A stretch of 64,000 nucleotides of DNA from Elusimicrobiota bacterium. Lineage in GTDB: Bacteria; Elusimicrobiota; Elusimicrobia; UBA1565; JACRDR01. Made by a program: the position numbers. Positions 37,901 through 55,900 of this stretch are shown here, one piece after another; position 1 is the stretch's first letter, and the number at the start of each line of letters is the position of its first letter. The stretch spans positions 32,001 through 96,000 of the forward strand of contig JBGFSC010000004.1 in assembly GCA_041694815.1 (NCBI GenBank). Direction: 5' to 3'.

Positions 37901-40900
37901 CTCCGGTGCGCCCCTCGCCTCGTCGGCCCGCAGCCGAACAATATAGGTCCTTAGACCCATAACGTGAGGACCTTTGGACCCATGCGCGTCCTAGGCCTTT
38001 TCAGTATCCTGCCCGCATGAAGCGGTTCTCAGGGAGGGAGAAAATCATGAGGGGTTGGATCACGCTCGTTTTCGTCTTGTGCCACGCGTCCATCGGCTCG
38101 GCGCAGCTGACCGTCAAGGGCCAGAAGAGCCCGCGCTCGGAGCGGCGCATCCTCGTCGGCTTCAAGCCGGGAGTCGACAGGGGAGAGCGCGTCAGCGTCT
38201 TGAAAACCCTGGGCCTGGAGCCTGCCGAGGAGATACGCTCGCTGGGGGTGGTGGTGGCGCAGCCCTCGCAAGAGGAGTTCCGCACCGCCGCCGTGGCGAG
38301 GATATCCCAGCACCCCTCCATCCTGACGGCCGAAGAGGACGTCTGGATACAATGGGATCTCGAGGACGCTCCCGCCGGCTCCTTCCATCAGACGCCGATG
38401 CCGTCTCTCGGCGAACTTTCGGGCCAATTGCCTTCCTTCAAGCGCGAAGAGCTCGGCGACAGGGAAATCCCCTGGGGCGTGCGGCGGGTTAACGCTCCCA
38501 CGGTCTGGGCCAAGAATCGCGGAGAGGGAGTGCGCGTCGCCGTGATCGATACCGGCGTCGACTTCCGCCATCCGGACCTCGCGCCGAACCTCTCGGGCGG
38601 CCTCAATACCTTCGATGAGCAGGCCCCTCCGCTCGATGATCAGGGCCACGGCACGGCGATGGCCGGCATCGTAGCGGCGGTCAAGGACGGCCGTGGCGTG
38701 GTGGGGGTGGCGCCCAAGGCGAAGCTTTACGCCGTGAAGGTGGCCGACGCCACCGGCGGCGGACGGCTCTCAAACATGATCGAGGGCATACTCTGGTGCG
38801 CCGATCAGCGCATGCATGTCGCCAACATCTCGATGGGCATGAAGATGGACAGCGCCTTCCTCAACCGCGCGATCAAGTACGCGGTGAGCCGAGGCGTCAC
38901 GATCGTGGCGGCCGCCGGGAATTCCGGCCGAACCGTCGACCCCTCCGTGTCTTATCCGGCGGCCTACCCCGAGGTTATCGCGGTCTCGGCGGGCGATCCC
39001 AACGATCAAATCGCCGGTTTCTCGAGCCGGGGACCTGAGATCGACTTCCTGGCGCCTGGGGTGCAGATCCTTTCCGCCGAGATGGGCGGAGGTACGGCGG
39101 CGCATTCGGGGACTTCCCCGGCCGCCCCGCACGTGGCGGGCCTGGCGGCGCTGGCCGTCGCGCAGGGAGCCAAGAGCCCTGCCGCCGTGCGCTCGGCCTT
39201 GGACGCGGCTGCGGTCAAGGTCAGCGGGCTCGGCCCGGCGGAGCAGGGTGCCGGCGTCATCGACGCCGCGCGGCTGATCCATAAAGCTCGTTAGCCTGGG
39301 CCCCGGGCGCGGGTCTGTCGTCAATATTCTGGTGACGACCCGAGGCATTTTTGTAGTCGGGCTTTTGTTCCTCGCGTATGGGACGAGTGCGGCGGAGTCC
39401 ACAGGCACCGCCAAGAACTGGAAGGAATCGGCCGAACTCACACTGATCAATACCACCGGCAACAGCCGCGCTACGACTTACGGGGCCAAGCAGCTCTTCA
39501 CCTATAACCGAGGCCGTGCCGGCGTCGAAGTCAAGGCGGGCGCGTTGGGTTCGAAAAGCGGGCGTTCGGTCACCGCCGAGCAGTATAACGCCAGCGAGAA
39601 GGTGACCTGGAAAATCCGGGGGGCTTTCTATAACTTCGAGCGCTTCGCCTGGGACAAGAACCGCTTCGCCGGCATTCTCAACCGTTACGACGCTTCGGGA
39701 GGGTTCGGTTGGGGGTTTTTCGAGAATAGGTCGAACCAGCTGCTGGTGGAGTTCGGCGGCGCCTATATCAGCGAGGAGCGCAGCGCGTCGGGGAAGAACG
39801 AGTTCGCTTCCGGTAGGGCCTTCACGAAATTCACCAGGGCCCTGGGGCCGAATTCGCGTTTCGTCCAAGAAGGGACCTACAATCGCAATTTCAAGGACGG
39901 CCGCGATTACCGCGTCCACACCGACACGGCTTTGATCGCCTCGATCTCCACCCACCTGTCGCTGAAGGTCTCCTACGAGTGGAGGCGGGTCAACCGGCCG
40001 CCGGCGGGATTCGTCAAGGACGACACCATCACGGCCATGGCCATCATTTTAAATTACTAAGGCGGTTGACGGTCCAGGTTCTCAAGGCAGCGTTTACGCG
40101 CTTCGGGCGCGTGGCTCGGCTATAGCGAGGGTCGGGCGAAAAATTCTAAAGTTATCCTGATGCCGGCGATCTCGGAGCAATTCATGCAGCTGGCCATCGA
40201 GGCGGCCCGCAAGGGCTGTTCGGAGGGGGCGGGCGGCCCCTTCGGGGCCTGCATCGTCCACAAGGGGAAGGTGCTGTCGGTCGGCCACAACACGGTGCTC
40301 CGCGGGAAGAACCCGACCTTGCACGCGGAGATCTGCGCGATTAATTCGGCGACGCTTAAGCTCGGCACGCACGAGCTATCCGGCTGCGATATCTATTCGA
40401 CTACGGAGCCCTGCGTGATGTGCTTTGCGGCCATCAATTGGGCCAAGATCGGCCGCGTCTATTTCGGAACTAGGGTCAACGACGTCAAAAGGCTGGGCTT
40501 CAACGAGCTCACCATTTCCAACCGCACCCTCAAGCGGCTCGGCCGAAGCAACATCCGCCTCTATCCCGGGTTCCGCCGGAAGGAATGCCTCGAGCTGCTC
40601 GATTATTGGAAAGGCCTGCCGGGCCGCCGCACCTATTGATGGCCTCCTCCCAGACTCTCGCCGACTGGGTGCGCGATCTCCCCAAGCCCGCCGTCGCCTG
40701 CACCTTGGTGGAGGTAGTCGGGAGCGCGCCGCAGTCGGTCGGCGCCAGGATGTGGGTCGGAGCCGAGCGCTTCCTGGGCACGCTGGGCGGGGGGGAATTC
40801 GAACGGCGGGTCCTCGATCACGCTAGGCGAATGCTGCGCGAGGGGCGCCAAGCCCCGGCGCTCATGGAATTCGTGCTCTGCAAGGAGATGGGGCAATGCT

Positions 40901-52900: not shown

Positions 52901-55900
52901 GCCAAAGCCGCCGCCGGTCGCCGTCTGCACGACCCGGAGCTTCTCATCGGGCAATTCGAAGAGGTGCTTGAGGGCCTTGTGGACGTAGTAGGGGCATTGA
53001 AGCGAGCCCATCACATGCAGGGCGCCGTCCTCCCACCAGGCGGCCATTGCGTTGTTCTCGATGTAGGCGTGCTCTTGATGGGGCACGCGGTACTCGCCCT
53101 CGACGATAAAACGGGACTCGGCCAATCCCTTCTCGACGTCACCCTTCTCGATAAGGTATTTCTTGAATACGTTGTCGGTCGAATAGATGGCGTGCTTGAC
53201 CGCCAGCGAGTCCTCGAGGGTGAGCACGCAGTCAAGCTCCTCGTACTCGACGCGCACGTGGGAGAGCGCCTCGTAGGCCAGCTCCCGCCGCGGGTGGGCG
53301 ATCAAGGCGATGGGCTCGAAGGCGTGGCGGACGACGTCGTCTGCCAGGAGGGGCTGGTCGAGCTCGATCAAGGCGACTTGATTGCGCGGTACGTCCTTGG
53401 CCGTGGCGACGACGAACTCCGACCAGGGGAAGCGGGGATCGAAGACGATCTCGCGGATGCGGGCGTGCGGCACGCTCGAACGCAGGGTGGCGCCGTAGAG
53501 GCAGCCGGGGATTTCGTAGTCGTCGAGGTACTTGGCCTCGCCGCGCAGCTTCTCCTTCCCTTCGTAGCGCAGCTCGCTTTTTCCGACGGAAGGCATGAGC
53601 GGATTTTAGGATATAATAGGCGCGTTGATAAATAACGACTGGCATAGGGTCGGGTCCTTCGCCGCCGCCTCCTCCGCTTTCGAGATCGGTGCCGGCAGCC
53701 TCCTGCATTCGTTGCGCGTTCCCCTGCGCGGCCATCTGTTGGCCAACCTGCAGGGGGCCGTGCTATCGGCCTATCTCGACCGGAGGCGGGCGCGCTGCCG
53801 GCGCGTCTTCTGGGTCTCCGCGCTGAGCGGGGCGCTCAAGAGCCTATCGCCCGCCGGCTCGCGCCTTAGGCCGATGCTCGCCATATTCATGCAAGGCGCC
53901 TTATTCCATGGCGCGGTTAATCTGCTGGGACCCGGGCTGGCCGGCGTTTCGGTCGGGCACGCGATGATCGGCGCCTGGTGCGGTTTCCAGACTTTTTTCT
54001 TCCAGTACCTGTTGTTCGGCTCCGACTTGCTGAGAGGATACGAATCCTTATTTCGCTGGGCGGCAAGCTTCGTCCCGCTGCCGTCTCCGGGGGCGGCTCT
54101 GGCCGGATGGGTGGCGGCGAGCTCGCTGTTTTCGGCGGCGTTGGGTACCACCTTCTTCCTTGGCTTTTTCCGCTTGGAGAACTTCCGCGTCCCAGCGCTC
54201 GAGCTCGCGCCGCCGCGAGGCGGAGGCTGGGCGCAAAGCGCGCGCTCGGCGATGGGCGAGCTGCGCAGGCCTTATTTCCTTGGGCCGCTCGCTTTCATGG
54301 TTTTTTTCACGATACTGACGGGTCGAGGATGGGAGCGCGCCGCGTGGATCTCGGCCCGGGCGCTGCTCTTCGCATTCGCGGCGGCCCTGCTCGTGCGCCG
54401 CATCGAATTGGCGCGCGTCGCCGCATGGTTGAGCCGGAAGGGCTTCAGCGGTCCGGCGACGGCCTTGGAAGTAGCGCTATCAGGAGCCGCGGGAGCGGTG
54501 CACCAGCGCGGGCCATACGTCGAAAAGGGAGATGAACATCGCCGTCAGTATGGGCCCGATGAACACGCCGAAAAGGCCGAAGAAGGATATGCCCCCCAGG
54601 ATCGAAAGCAGCGCGACGAAGGGGTGCATGCCCTCGCCTCCCCGTAGCACCAACGGCCGGACGATGTTGTCGATGAGCCCGGCGGCCGCCATCACCACGA
54701 TCATGCCCGCCATCCGTAGGCCCGCGCCTTGGGCGTAGAGCACGATCACTCCCGTCAACGTCACCGGCAAGGTGCCGACCATCGGGATCCAGGCCAGGAT
54801 GAAGGCCGCGCCCCCGGCGAGAAAGGCGGCCGGCAGGCCCAGGATCAGGTAACCCAGGAATACGATGAGCGCCTGCGAGCTCGAGGCGGCCAGGCTCGCC
54901 CAGACCGTGGCGATCGCCGTGCCGTGCAGGGATTTGACGAGCCGCTGGCGCACGTCCGGGTCCAGGCCGCTTCGATCCAGGGCCCATTCGACGAAGCGTC
55001 GGCCGTCGACGAGGAAGAAATAAAGGGCCACGACCGTAAGCAGCAATTGCAGTAGCAATCGAGGCACTTCCCTCGCCAACGCGACCACCGTCGCCGTGAT
55101 TTGTCCGGCCGATTTTCGCACGAGCTGAGCCGATTGCTGGCGCAGGGCCTCGGGATCGCCGAGCCATTCGCCCAGCACGGGCAGCTGCTGCAGCCGGTCC
55201 AGCAGGATTTCGAGGCTCAGAGCTTCGCGTTCTGAGAGATCCTGCCCCAGGCGGATAGCCTGCCCCACGGCCTGCGAGGTGAATAAGGCGGCCGGGGTGA
55301 TGACAAGAAGCAGGATGCCGAGGCTCACCAGCACGGCGGAGAGCCGCCGTCCGGCCCCGCGCGCGAGCAGGGCGCCGTAGGCCGGATACGCGAGCGCGGC
55401 GAGAGTGGCGCCCAAGAAAAGGGCCAGCGCGTACGGCGCGAATATGCGGACGACGAAATAGCCCAGGCCGGCCAGGATGATGAGGAACGCGACGAGCGGC
55501 GTCTTGCTCGGCGCGTTCACTTGCCGCCCGCGTCGGCTAGCGCTTCTCTGCAGTCAACGCGATTGAGGGCGAATTCATCCCTGCTCTTCTTTCCGTTCCT
55601 GGTCTTTTCCAATATGATCTTTAGGATGCTTCCGGTGCCCTCATAGACGAGCTTTTCGGTGGGAACGCCGCGCGGGGTCTGGAAAACGACTCGCCGATCC
55701 GCGTGTTCGACGGCGTCGAATTCCACGCTTCTTTTCCCGTTTATCTCGACCCGCAGCCGCAGGCGGCCGTCTTTTTCTTGGATCCGCATCGTCTCGTAGA
55801 AGGCGGTTTCGCCCTTGTCGATCATCCGCCCCATTTGCAGCAGGGTATTCCCTTCGGGTCTCGTCCAATATTCCTCGATGGCTCCGCCGGGGAAATCCTG

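What a model noticed while it worked through the whole genome (the two positions that open the first line are those of the whole stretch)
40160..53596. Xanthine dehydrogenase with XdhC and MocA but no molybdenum cofactor synthesis
A complete purine-catabolic cluster includes XdhABC, the chaperone XdhC and a MocA-like nucleotidyltransferase, yet MoaA, MoaC, MoeA, MoaE and a molybdate transporter are missing. The cell would have to take molybdopterin cofactor from other organisms.
Evidence so far: MoaC, MoeA, MoaA not found in six frames; MoaE absent from the tables; no Swiss-Prot best hit with 'molybd'. XdhA is an intact 740-aa frame. The same pattern (strong XdhC hit, no MoaC) holds in 8 of 50 order relatives, including 97% and 99% complete ones.
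(Added by a program. Inside this text positions count along the whole contig: contig position 32,001 is position 1 of the stretch shown here. "Call 12" and the like, gene names such as g00115 and contig names such as C1 are that model's own, and its searches are not shown. The text may have been shortened before it was handed on; [...] marks where a part breaks off. The agent that wrote the report below was given it as the finding of a first reader that could run no searches.)

Follow-up and report, generated by a model that had tools for sequence, protein, structure and literature searches.

The report
Bacteria that may import molybdenum cofactor
This bacterium keeps an intact molybdenum enzyme but has no genes to build the cofactor it needs, and the gene facing that enzyme encodes a vitamin-transporter-type membrane protein that tracks molybdenum enzymes in other genomes, making it a testable candidate importer for a cofactor that bacteria are thought to always make themselves.

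Summary
Observation confirmed. The genome (97.8% complete) has an intact xanthine-oxidase-family enzyme with XdhC and a MocA-like gene, but no MoaA, MoaC, MoaE, MoeA, MogA/MoaB or molybdate transporter was found. Of 81 order genomes with this enzyme family, 14 lack MoaA, MoaC and MoeA. Mid-contig junctions show the operon truly missing from its usual site (G065, G096, G097, G099, G100). The enzyme keeps its cofactor motifs in 14 of 14 and stays under purifying selection (dN/dS about 0.2).

New here: the unannotated gene divergent from xdhA (53625-54647) folds like an ECF S-component. Its family occurs in 11 of 14 Moa-less enzyme carriers against 12 of 67 Moa-positive ones. All 50 outside genomes chosen only for this gene have the enzyme family; 26 lack MoaC. 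In 121 Bacteroidales, all 42 carriers have a molybdenum or tungsten enzyme. It neighbours xdh, xdhC, mocA, mobA, moeA-mogA, psrA and AOR genes.

Best reading (about 0.6): cofactor salvage through this S-component. Transport, substrate and expression are not shown. Many family members lie in general metal contexts, and 3 of 14 Moa-less genomes lack it.

The parts
40160..40639 (+). Guanine-deaminase-like zinc deaminase (159 aa); would supply xanthine
   Evidence: PF00383 97 bits; function from context
40639..41451 (+). XdhC cofactor-sulfuration/insertion chaperone (open frame from 40585)
   Evidence: TIGR02964 180.6 bits over cut-off 161.6; start from gene caller
41435..42016 (+). MocA-like nucleotidyltransferase (193 aa); acts after Mo-molybdopterin
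   Evidence: PF12804 77.9 bits; TIGR03310 best but under cut-off
41994..43346 (+). Allantoinase AllB
   Evidence: TIGR03178 565.6 over 357.85
43270..44277 (+). Allantoicase
   Evidence: TIGR02961 409 over 278
44252..44764 (+). OHCU decarboxylase
   Evidence: TIGR03180 over cut-off
44776..45111 (+). Hydroxyisourate hydrolase
   Evidence: TIGR02962 over cut-off
45101..45757 (+). Di-heme cytochrome c
   Evidence: PF00034, two stretches
45764..46576 (+). Membrane urate oxidase-like protein (PuuD type; that name is recalled)
   Evidence: PF06181 298 bits
48112..48726 (-). Exported mono-heme cytochrome c, last gene of the xdh run; role unknown
   Evidence: CxxCH in sequence; weak SorB hit; 64% paralog on C15
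48723..50075 (-). DUF6986 protein, travels with xdh in most relatives
   Evidence: PF22484 597 bits; no PDB match
50072..50935 (-). FAD subunit (287 aa)
   Evidence: PF00941, PF03450; start
50932..51402 (-). 2Fe-2S subunit (156 aa)
   Evidence: Cysteine motifs in the sequence; conserved 63-75% in relatives
51374..53596 (-). Molybdenum-cofactor-binding large subunit (740 aa), intact
   Evidence: PF02738, PF20256, PF01315; 193 of 195 columns invariant in 26 Moa-positive orthologs kept
53597..53631 (.). 28-base gap shared by the divergent xdhA and S-component genes, with a -10-like box on each strand
   Evidence: Minus-strand promoter-like site 53631-53603 (0.0 expected in shuffles); TATAAT read on the plus strand. 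Consensus matches only
53625..54647 (+). ECF S-component-fold membrane protein, candidate importer of molybdenum cofactor or molybdopterin (S fold residues 1-192; last ~55 codons overlap the opposite gene and look non-coding)
   Evidence: Model pLDDT 79; top 14 fold matches all ECF S-components, best 5edl Z 11.3, rmsd 3.6, 168 aligned; GC3 0.76-0.84 for the first 300 codons; distribution

Best explanation
The organism (Elusimicrobiota by its relatives' record titles) is a molybdenum-cofactor auxotroph that still runs guanine > xanthine > urate > allantoin > allantoate breakdown. SHOWN by sequence: all steps up to Mo-molybdopterin (MoaA, MoaC, MoaD/E, MogA, MoeA, molybdate uptake) were not found; the steps after it (MocA-like, XdhC, a cysteine desulfurase, XdhABC) are kept and conserved. 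INFERRED: the cell takes up ready-made Mo-molybdopterin released by, or taken from, other cells; the ECF S-component gene facing xdhA carries it across the inner membrane (alone in this genome, as BtuM is reported to do for B12; fused to an NTPase or with EcfA/T, DUF364 and a TonB-dependent receptor in others); MocA adds CMP, XdhC sulfurates and inserts it. Genomes that keep MoeA (G145) or MoeA plus MogA beside the transporter (G261) without MoaC suggest the carrier may also take metal-free molybdopterin. My odds: loss real 0.93; enzyme active on salvaged cofactor 0.75; this family is the importer 0.6.
For: Absence in a 97.8% genome. 14 of 81 enzyme-bearing order genomes lack MoaA, MoaC and MoeA, in 7 genera and scattered on the XdhA tree. 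Junctions: in G065 (3.1-Mb contig) the two genes that flank moaA-moaC-moeA-moaD-moaE in G049 and G040 are 21 bases apart; G096, G097, G099, G100 likewise lack the operon beside a kept mocA. Motifs intact in 14 of 14 (one motif lies outside truncated G097). dN/dS 0.217 (G065/G047) and 0.183 (G080/G081), like Mo-independent allB 0.19 and alc 0.22 in the same pair. S-component family in 11 of 14 Moa-less against 12 of 67 Moa-positive enzyme carriers and 2 of 17 genomes with neither; within genera: g21 2 of 3 against 1 of 30, g9 1 of 1 against 0 of 1. 50 of 50 outside carriers have the enzyme family, 26 lack MoaC, 21 of those 26 lack MoeA too. Bacteroidales: 42 of 42 carriers have a Mo/W enzyme (29 XO, 7 AOR, 6 full-length DMSO-reductase family) against 2 of 15 DMSO-reductase and 0 of 41 AOR in tested controls (66, 72-74). 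Neighbours span enzyme families: psrABC+mobA (G225, G268), moeA-mogA (G261), AOR (G092, G097), xdhC (G002, G011, G067), moa/wtp operons (G093, G095, L182), MOSC and sulfite-oxidase-fold genes (L304, L295). 13 of 19 short-type metagenome loci L289-L307 have such a neighbour.
Against: No transport, binding, activity or expression data. 3 of 14 Moa-less genomes lack the family even with a broader profile (G054 93%, G096 79%, G098 85%), as does G221. The family is common in genomes that make the cofactor (12 of 67; 24 of 50; 31 of 60 Bacteroidales with MoaC). Many loci show a general metal context: TonB-dependent receptor in 29 of 80, NikR-like, Fur, DUF134, NifX-like, CobW; only 3 of 27 loci L262-L288 have a Mo-related neighbour. 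G000's copy is only 30-34% identical to the order's common type and G000 has no EcfT, NTPase or DUF364 match. dN/dS in the Moa-less pairs is above five Moa-positive pairs (0.10-0.16; a sixth gives 0.25), and loss dates are unknown. Incompleteness alone could hide a single operon in up to about 9 of 81 (my sum of completeness deficits). G094 and G095 lack the operon at the usual site but carry one elsewhere, so a junction alone is not absence. No junction test for G000's own loss was possible beyond two empty sites. Free cofactor is unstable (PMC9026282, PMC7849362, passages). Kin are not independent, so the Fisher values overstate.
Confidence: 0.6

Rival explanations
1. Salvage is real, but this S-component carries something else (molybdate or tungstate, a nickel/cobalt chelate or cobalamin, or a purine base), and the cofactor enters by another route.
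For: NikR-like, Fur, CobW, DUF364 and TonB-receptor contexts; placement in purine clusters in G000, G079-G081, G144; absent from 3 of 14 Moa-less genomes; common in Moa-positive genomes.
Against: Molybdate is of no use without the pterin pathway, yet the family is enriched where that pathway is missing (11 of 14 against 12 of 67). A purine carrier would not sit with psrA-mobA, moeA-mogA, AOR, MOSC. The Elusimicrobiales with NikR-type contexts all have 2-4 enzymes of the family (27 of 27) and 15 lack MoaC.
Confidence: 0.17
2. Relic: the biosynthesis operon was lost recently and the enzyme, XdhC and MocA have not yet decayed.
For: Loss dates unknown; dN/dS slightly higher in Moa-less pairs; the G047 junction was not seen, so G065 and G047 may have lost it separately.
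Against: Moa-less sister pairs differ by dS 0.37 with dN/dS 0.18-0.22 and no stops; mocA 0.20 and xdhC 0.19 in G065/G047; all 3 g28 genomes lack Moa; a relic gives no reason for S-component enrichment.
Confidence: 0.08
3. The cofactor is made by a non-homologous pathway, or the enzyme works without it.
For: Peng et al. 2018 offer both for their orphan molybdoproteins (PMC6147048). G000 has many unassigned radical-SAM genes (18 on C48).
Against: All four steps and metal uptake would need replacing, repeatedly, inside genera whose sisters keep the standard operon; cofactor-binding motifs, MocA and XdhC are unchanged; no replacement gene lies at the junctions. Radical-SAM clusters were not compared across Moa-less genomes.
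Confidence: 0.07
4. The moa operon of G000 exists but fell outside the bin.
For: 54 contigs; moa genes usually form one 4-kb operon; the site of its loss in G000 could not be pinned.
Against: 97.8% complete; no moa ortholog fragment within 1.5 kb of any contig end (two weak hits, best E 7e-4 over 118 residues); no molybdate transporter or second Mo enzyme elsewhere; a random gap would not coincide with the S-component pattern; it would not touch the junction cases.
Confidence: 0.05

Closest known systems
Dietary Moco uptake in nematodes (C. elegans; Haemonchus contortus)
   Same: Molybdoenzymes run on cofactor made by another organism (PMC7849362 passages, PMC7619442 abstract and outline). PMC9026282 (passages) calls C. 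elegans the only known exception to de novo synthesis and its mechanism not understood.
   Different: Here a bacterium, repeated loss of the whole operon, and a named candidate transporter gene.
ECF S-components (YkoE 5edl, RibU, FolT, ThiT, PanT, BioY, CbiM) and solitary BtuM with BtuB
   Same: Same fold over residues 1-192; occurs alone, fused, or with EcfA/EcfT (G011, G067); often beside a TonB-dependent receptor; replaces a lost biosynthesis pathway, as BtuM does for B12 (PMC6072759, passages).
   Different: 7-13% identity to solved S-components; no Pfam match for the family at the thresholds used; extra helical extension and often an NTPase_1/DUF2478 domain; proposed substrate is a pyranopterin, for which my searches found no described S-component.
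Orphan molybdoproteins of Peng et al. 2018 (PMC6147048)
   Same: 305 bacteria listed with Mo enzymes and no Moco pathway, most without Mo transporters; Table S1 lists Bdellovibrio bacteriovorus HD100 with three such proteins.
   Different: In the passages read they proposed incomplete genomes, pseudogenes, new biosynthesis or Mo-free forms, not uptake; no transporter was named.
Three-subunit xanthine dehydrogenases with XdhC and MocA (E. coli XdhABC, B. subtilis PucCDE)
   Same: FAD, 2Fe-2S and Mo subunits, XdhC, MocA-like gene, purine catabolism context; Glu and Arg positions of the xanthine-oxidase site appear kept (assignment to the known residues is recalled).
   Different: Below all equivalog cut-offs; no in-house cofactor supply.

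Membership tests
ECF S-component | S-component helical fold | tested here: met
   Top 14 VIA-align matches are S-components, best Z 11.3, rmsd 3.6, 168 aligned. Foldseek gave nothing at E<0.001, 5edl at probability 0.84. Z is under the tool's caution level of 13 for helical proteins; the run of 14 family members is the support.
ECF S-component | Works with an EcfA/EcfA'/EcfT module, or alone as BioY/BtuM do | tested here: inconclusive
   No EcfT or NTPase match in G000; full modules beside homologs in G011 and G067; CbiQ-like extension only a lead at 0.79; fold of the full fusion failed (pLDDT 41).
ECF S-component | High-affinity binding and uptake of a micronutrient | not testable with these tools
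   Needs biochemistry.
Xanthine oxidase family molybdoenzyme | MoCoBD_1, MoCoBD_2, hammerhead domains with FAD and 2Fe-2S partners | tested here: met
Xanthine oxidase family molybdoenzyme | Cofactor-binding and catalytic motifs intact | tested here: met
   motif roles recalled.
Xanthine dehydrogenase (named equivalogs) | Score over an NCBIfam equivalog cut-off | tested here: not met
   PucD 482/784, XdhA 409/780, XdhB 368/850. It works like one by context; not filed under these equivalogs.
MocA cytidylyltransferase | TIGR03310 cut-off | tested here: not met
   38.6 against 186.45; MobA 28.7 against 151.85. Filed only as MocA-like.
MocA cytidylyltransferase | CTP specificity | not testable with these tools
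   Inferred from linkage to XdhC and the enzyme family.
Canonical Moco biosynthesis | MoaA, MoaC, MoaD/E, MoeA, MogA/MoaB and a molybdate transporter in the genome | tested here: not met
   TupA was not searched by its own profile.
Cofactor auxotroph with salvage | Enzyme activity depends on outside cofactor | not testable with these tools
   Organism uncultured as far as the records show; no RNA holder listed.

The most novel reading that the evidence does not exclude
Bacteria of several phyla trade molybdenum cofactor as they trade B12: this S-component family (710 clusters at 50% identity with E up to 0.001), with a TonB-dependent receptor and DUF364, is a dedicated Moco/molybdopterin importer, the first transporter of this cofactor named in any organism, and explains a good share of the 'orphan molybdoenzymes', predators such as Bdellovibrio perhaps included.
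Probability: 0.5. Interest if true: 0.93.

Novelty: new variant of a known kind. Interest (0 to 1): 0.82.

Why it matters
Reviews state that molybdenum cofactor cannot be taken up and must be made in the cell that uses it, nematodes being the exception with an unknown mechanism (PMC9026282, PMC7849362). A 2018 survey left 305 bacteria with unexplained orphan molybdoenzymes (PMC6147048). This locus turns that open question into a one-gene test in laboratory E. coli. If true, it adds a cross-fed cofactor to microbial ecology, changes how 'incomplete' Moco pathways are read in genomes, gives a function to an unannotated membrane family and perhaps to DUF364 and DUF2478/NTPase_1 fusions, and supplies a protein that binds and moves an unstable cofactor.

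Tried and rejected
No RNA holder was listed for 47000-56000; no conclusion drawn. Single-sequence fold of the 554-aa fusion failed (pLDDT 41), so the T-like and NTPase parts are untested by structure. Foldseek found nothing at E<0.001. Atlas search of the cytochrome-fused gene upstream of the S-component in G001, G047, G065 gave no usable hit. DUF6986 has no PDB sequence match. G000's two TonB-dependent receptors (C29, C54) are 24-30% identical to those beside S-components and lie on other contigs; neither could be assigned. The PF12804 search of five genomes cannot tell MocA from other nucleotidyltransferases and was not counted. PF13531 matches in G099, G065, G145, G144 (29-64 bits) were not examined, so those genomes may have a molybdate-type binding protein. 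Cluster look-up gave only 'hypothetical protein' and no taxa, so a link of the low-GC short type to Bdellovibrionota is a guess and was dropped. The CinA hit, 23 weak radical-SAM hits, the partial PF00384 hit on C49 and the MoaD-like/MoeB-like fusion on C12 were considered as Moco genes and rejected. G004, G031 and G069 lack MoaC but keep MoaA and/or MoeA and were counted as Moa-positive. G041 and G062 (in-frame TGA in the match) were left out of the XdhA alignment. Earlier findings: no look-alike; three unrelated notes.

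
Full report
1. The observation. The cluster lies at 40160-53596 in window coordinates. 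On the plus strand: a guanine-deaminase-like gene, xdhC, a MocA-like gene, allB, alc, OHCU decarboxylase, HIUase, a di-heme cytochrome c and a Urate_ox_N protein. On the minus strand: the Mo (740 aa), 2Fe-2S and FAD subunits, DUF6986 and a small cytochrome c. The Mo subunit is under all named equivalog cut-offs, so its substrate is read from context. G000 is 2.77 Mb in 54 contigs, 97.82% complete. MoaC, MoeA_N, Mob_synth_C, MoaE, MoaA over cut-off, SBP_bac_11 and AOR were not found; the moa profiles ring in 11 of 14 control genomes. The one PF00994 match is CinA-type. Relatives' own Moa, Moe, Mob, Mog, MOT1 and Wtp proteins find no ortholog, nor do MOSC or sulfite-oxidase-fold queries. A MoaD-like/MoeB-like fusion on C12 belongs to a mec-cysM block. 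Two cysteine-desulfurase-motif proteins are present.

2. Is the absence real? In 101 order genomes, 81 have the enzyme family, 67 MoaC, 68 MoeA, 69 Mob_synth_C. Fourteen enzyme carriers lack all three: G000, 001, 011, 047, 054, 065, 070, 080, 081, 096-100. The count alone is weak: completeness deficits sum to about 9 genomes (my sum). But only 1 of 13 carriers at 80% or less lacks the genes, while 8 of the 14 are at 90% or more. Synteny is firmer. In G049 and G040 the order is gene c16, moaA, moaC, moeA, moaD, moaE, fatty-acid hydroxylase, yaeQ; in G065, inside a 3.1-Mb contig, c16 and the hydroxylase are 21 bases apart and xdh, xdhC and mocA are kept. In genus g33, G092 has mocA, moaA-moaE, yaeQ, mscS, ahcY; G097 has mocA next to yaeQ, and G096, G099, G100 have mocA next to mscS-ahcY. 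G094 and G095 also lack the operon there but carry one elsewhere, so junctions count only with the whole-genome searches. For G000 itself, the sites used by G005 and G094 are assembled and empty, and contig ends hold no moa ortholog fragment; its own point of loss was not found.

3. Is the enzyme a relic? In an alignment of 14 Moa-less and 26 Moa-positive orthologs (two with in-frame stops left out), the cofactor and catalytic motifs are kept in all Moa-less sequences that cover them; G000 keeps 193 of 195 columns invariant in the Moa-positive set, against a leave-one-out mean of 98.8%. Moa-less sister pairs give dN/dS 0.217 (G065/G047) and 0.183 (G080/G081) at dS 0.37; mocA 0.20, xdhC 0.19, allB 0.19, alc 0.22 in G065/G047. 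Moa-positive pairs give 0.10-0.16 (five) and 0.25 (one). Selection is purifying; a mild relaxation, or separate recent losses, is not excluded. XdhC is present in 5 of 5 further Moa-less genomes searched.

4. A candidate importer. 28 bases from the xdhA start, on the other strand, is an unannotated membrane gene (53625-54647) with coding-type GC3 for about 300 codons and no Pfam or NCBIfam match. Homologs are fused to NTPase_1 or DUF2478. Its model (pLDDT 79) matches ECF S-components in the top 14 rows, best YkoE 5edl at Z 11.3; the atlas gives MptD-type S and CbiQ-type leads under its bar. The common type and the G000 type align at 99.8% probability over 163 columns; both profiles contain the G000 sequence, so this is not an independent test.

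5. Its distribution. In the order: 11 of 14 Moa-less enzyme carriers, 12 of 67 Moa-positive carriers, 0 of 3 Moa-positive non-carriers, 2 of 17 with neither (those two are 62% and 81% complete) (Fisher p 2e-5, overstated by kinship; four order genomes were in the query profile). Within genera, g21 gives 2 of 3 against 1 of 30 and g9 1 of 1 against 0 of 1; g23 and g33 have it on both sides. A scan of species genomes gave 136 relatives, 80 kept; I took 50 of the 66 loci outside the order. All 50 genomes have the enzyme family, 26 lack MoaC, and 21 of these 26 lack MoeA. Their titles name Elusimicrobia, Bacteroidota, Acidobacteriota, Gemmatimonadota, Lentisphaeria and others; completeness was not given. 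G145, a single 6.5-Mb chromosome, lacks MoaA, MoaC and MoaE, and has moeA, mocA-like and xdhC beside its enzyme. As a background I drew 121 genomes at 90% completeness or more from the order of G141 (titled Bacteroidales): the family is in 29 of 41 with the XO family and 13 of 80 without. Of those 13, 7 have AOR and 6 a full-length DMSO-reductase-family enzyme; controls without the family, XO or MoaC have AOR in 0 of 41 and the DMSO-reductase family in 2 of 15 tested of 49. Eleven of the 42 carriers lack MoaC; MoaA, MoaE and MoeA were not searched there, and one carrier (G187) is a partial match. Five of 6 XO-positive, MoaC-negative genomes carry it.

6. Its neighbours. Directly beside xdh genes in G000, G089 and G144 (same divergent layout in another phylum); in purine clusters in G079-G081; by xdhC or mocA in G002, G011, G067, G217; by AOR in G092, G097; ending moa/wtp operons in G093, G095, L182; with psrABC and mobA in MoaC-less G225 and G268; as receptor-DUF364-S-moeA-mogA in MoaC-less G261. 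In metagenomes, 13 of 19 loci L289-L307 (short type like G000's) have xdh, xdhC, MOSC or sulfite-oxidase-fold neighbours, against 3 of 27 loci L262-L288 (mostly NTPase-fused); many contigs are short. Against specificity: 29 of 80 loci have a TonB-dependent receptor, and most Elusimicrobiales loci lie among NikR-like, Fur, DUF134 and NifX-like genes; some lie by CobW. G054, G096, G098 and G221 lack the family. G000 has no EcfT, NTPase or DUF364.

7. Mechanism. What is lost stops at Mo-molybdopterin and what is kept starts there. The simplest account is uptake of Mo-molybdopterin through the S-component, CMP addition by the MocA-like enzyme, sulfuration and insertion by XdhC (roles of MocA and XdhC from established knowledge). 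Because the same gene sits with mobA, mocA and moeA-mogA in different genomes, the carried form should be the common precursor, not a dinucleotide. BtuM, a solitary S-fold B12 carrier found beside BtuB, is the working model (PMC6072759, passages). How an unstable cofactor survives outside cells is unexplained; protein-bound cofactor is stable and available to C. elegans (PMC7849362, passages). Steps shown: losses, conservation, fold, co-occurrence. Steps inferred: expression, activity, uptake, substrate.

8. Known and new. Peng et al. 2018 (PMC6147048; passages and parts of Table S1) list 305 bacteria with orphan molybdoenzymes, B. bacteriovorus HD100 among them, without proposing uptake in the passages read. 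Yokoyama et al. 2021 (PMC9026282; passages) name C. elegans as the only exception to de novo synthesis; Haemonchus is a later nematode case (PMC7619442; abstract and outline). Nine full-text searches (listings only) showed no bacterial Moco salvage or Moco-specific ECF transporter. The library lacks most subscription papers and bioRxiv supplements, so a prior in-silico prediction may exist.

9. Verdict. The pattern of orphan molybdoenzymes is known; evidence that the loss is real, repeated and tolerated, and a candidate importer, were not found in print. New variant of a known kind (cofactor salvage by an S-component, new substrate). Confidence 0.6, interest 0.82.

Noticed in passing
G000:C48:4800-58000 (part in L237): A cluster of 18 called genes with radical-SAM-type cysteine motifs in about 53 kb; 4 more on C42. 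Product unknown.
   Followed up: no
G000:C12:52741-55500: MoaD-like/MoeB-like fusion (479 aa) followed by a JAB-type peptidase and a cysteine synthase: a sulfur-carrier cysteine pathway with carrier and activator fused (labels from sequence motifs, not scanned).
   Followed up: partly
L134:7334-8140, L137:8910-9722, L138:8138-8944, L081:8206-9006, L067:15974-16774: A 266-270 aa exported protein with a C-terminal cytochrome c sits directly upstream of the S-component in three Moa-less genomes and directly upstream of xdhA in two others; its N-terminal domain has no family. Possible periplasmic cofactor-binding partner.
   Followed up: partly
L132:2972-5032 (G097); G070, G096: Moa-less genomes also keep AOR-family enzymes, in G097 facing DUF364 and the S-component, so a tungsten form may be salvaged too.
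   Followed up: partly
L078 (G094), L080 (G095): Two g33 genomes lack the moa operon at the usual site but carry differently built ones elsewhere (with MOT1 or WtpABC); the G094 copy sits in a site that is empty in G000. Looks like loss followed by regain.
   Followed up: partly
L243:3592-10198 (G261); L226 (G145): MoeA (with MogA in G261) kept without MoaC, beside the transporter or the enzyme: suggests metal-free molybdopterin import or re-metallation.
   Followed up: partly
window 54480-54647: The S-component frame runs 168 bases into the opposite AI-2E gene; coding signal drops there (GC3 0.59), as if the stop has moved.
   Followed up: partly
window 13658-15099: Two similar short lipoprotein-like genes in tandem on the minus strand.
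   Followed up: no
window 16435-17015: Small gene pair that reads like a type II antitoxin-toxin pair (93 and 102 codons; not scanned).
   Followed up: no
window 46573-47943: A 101-aa gene and an archaemetzincin-like protease lie between the two converging halves of the purine cluster; not seen in the relatives' clusters.
   Followed up: no
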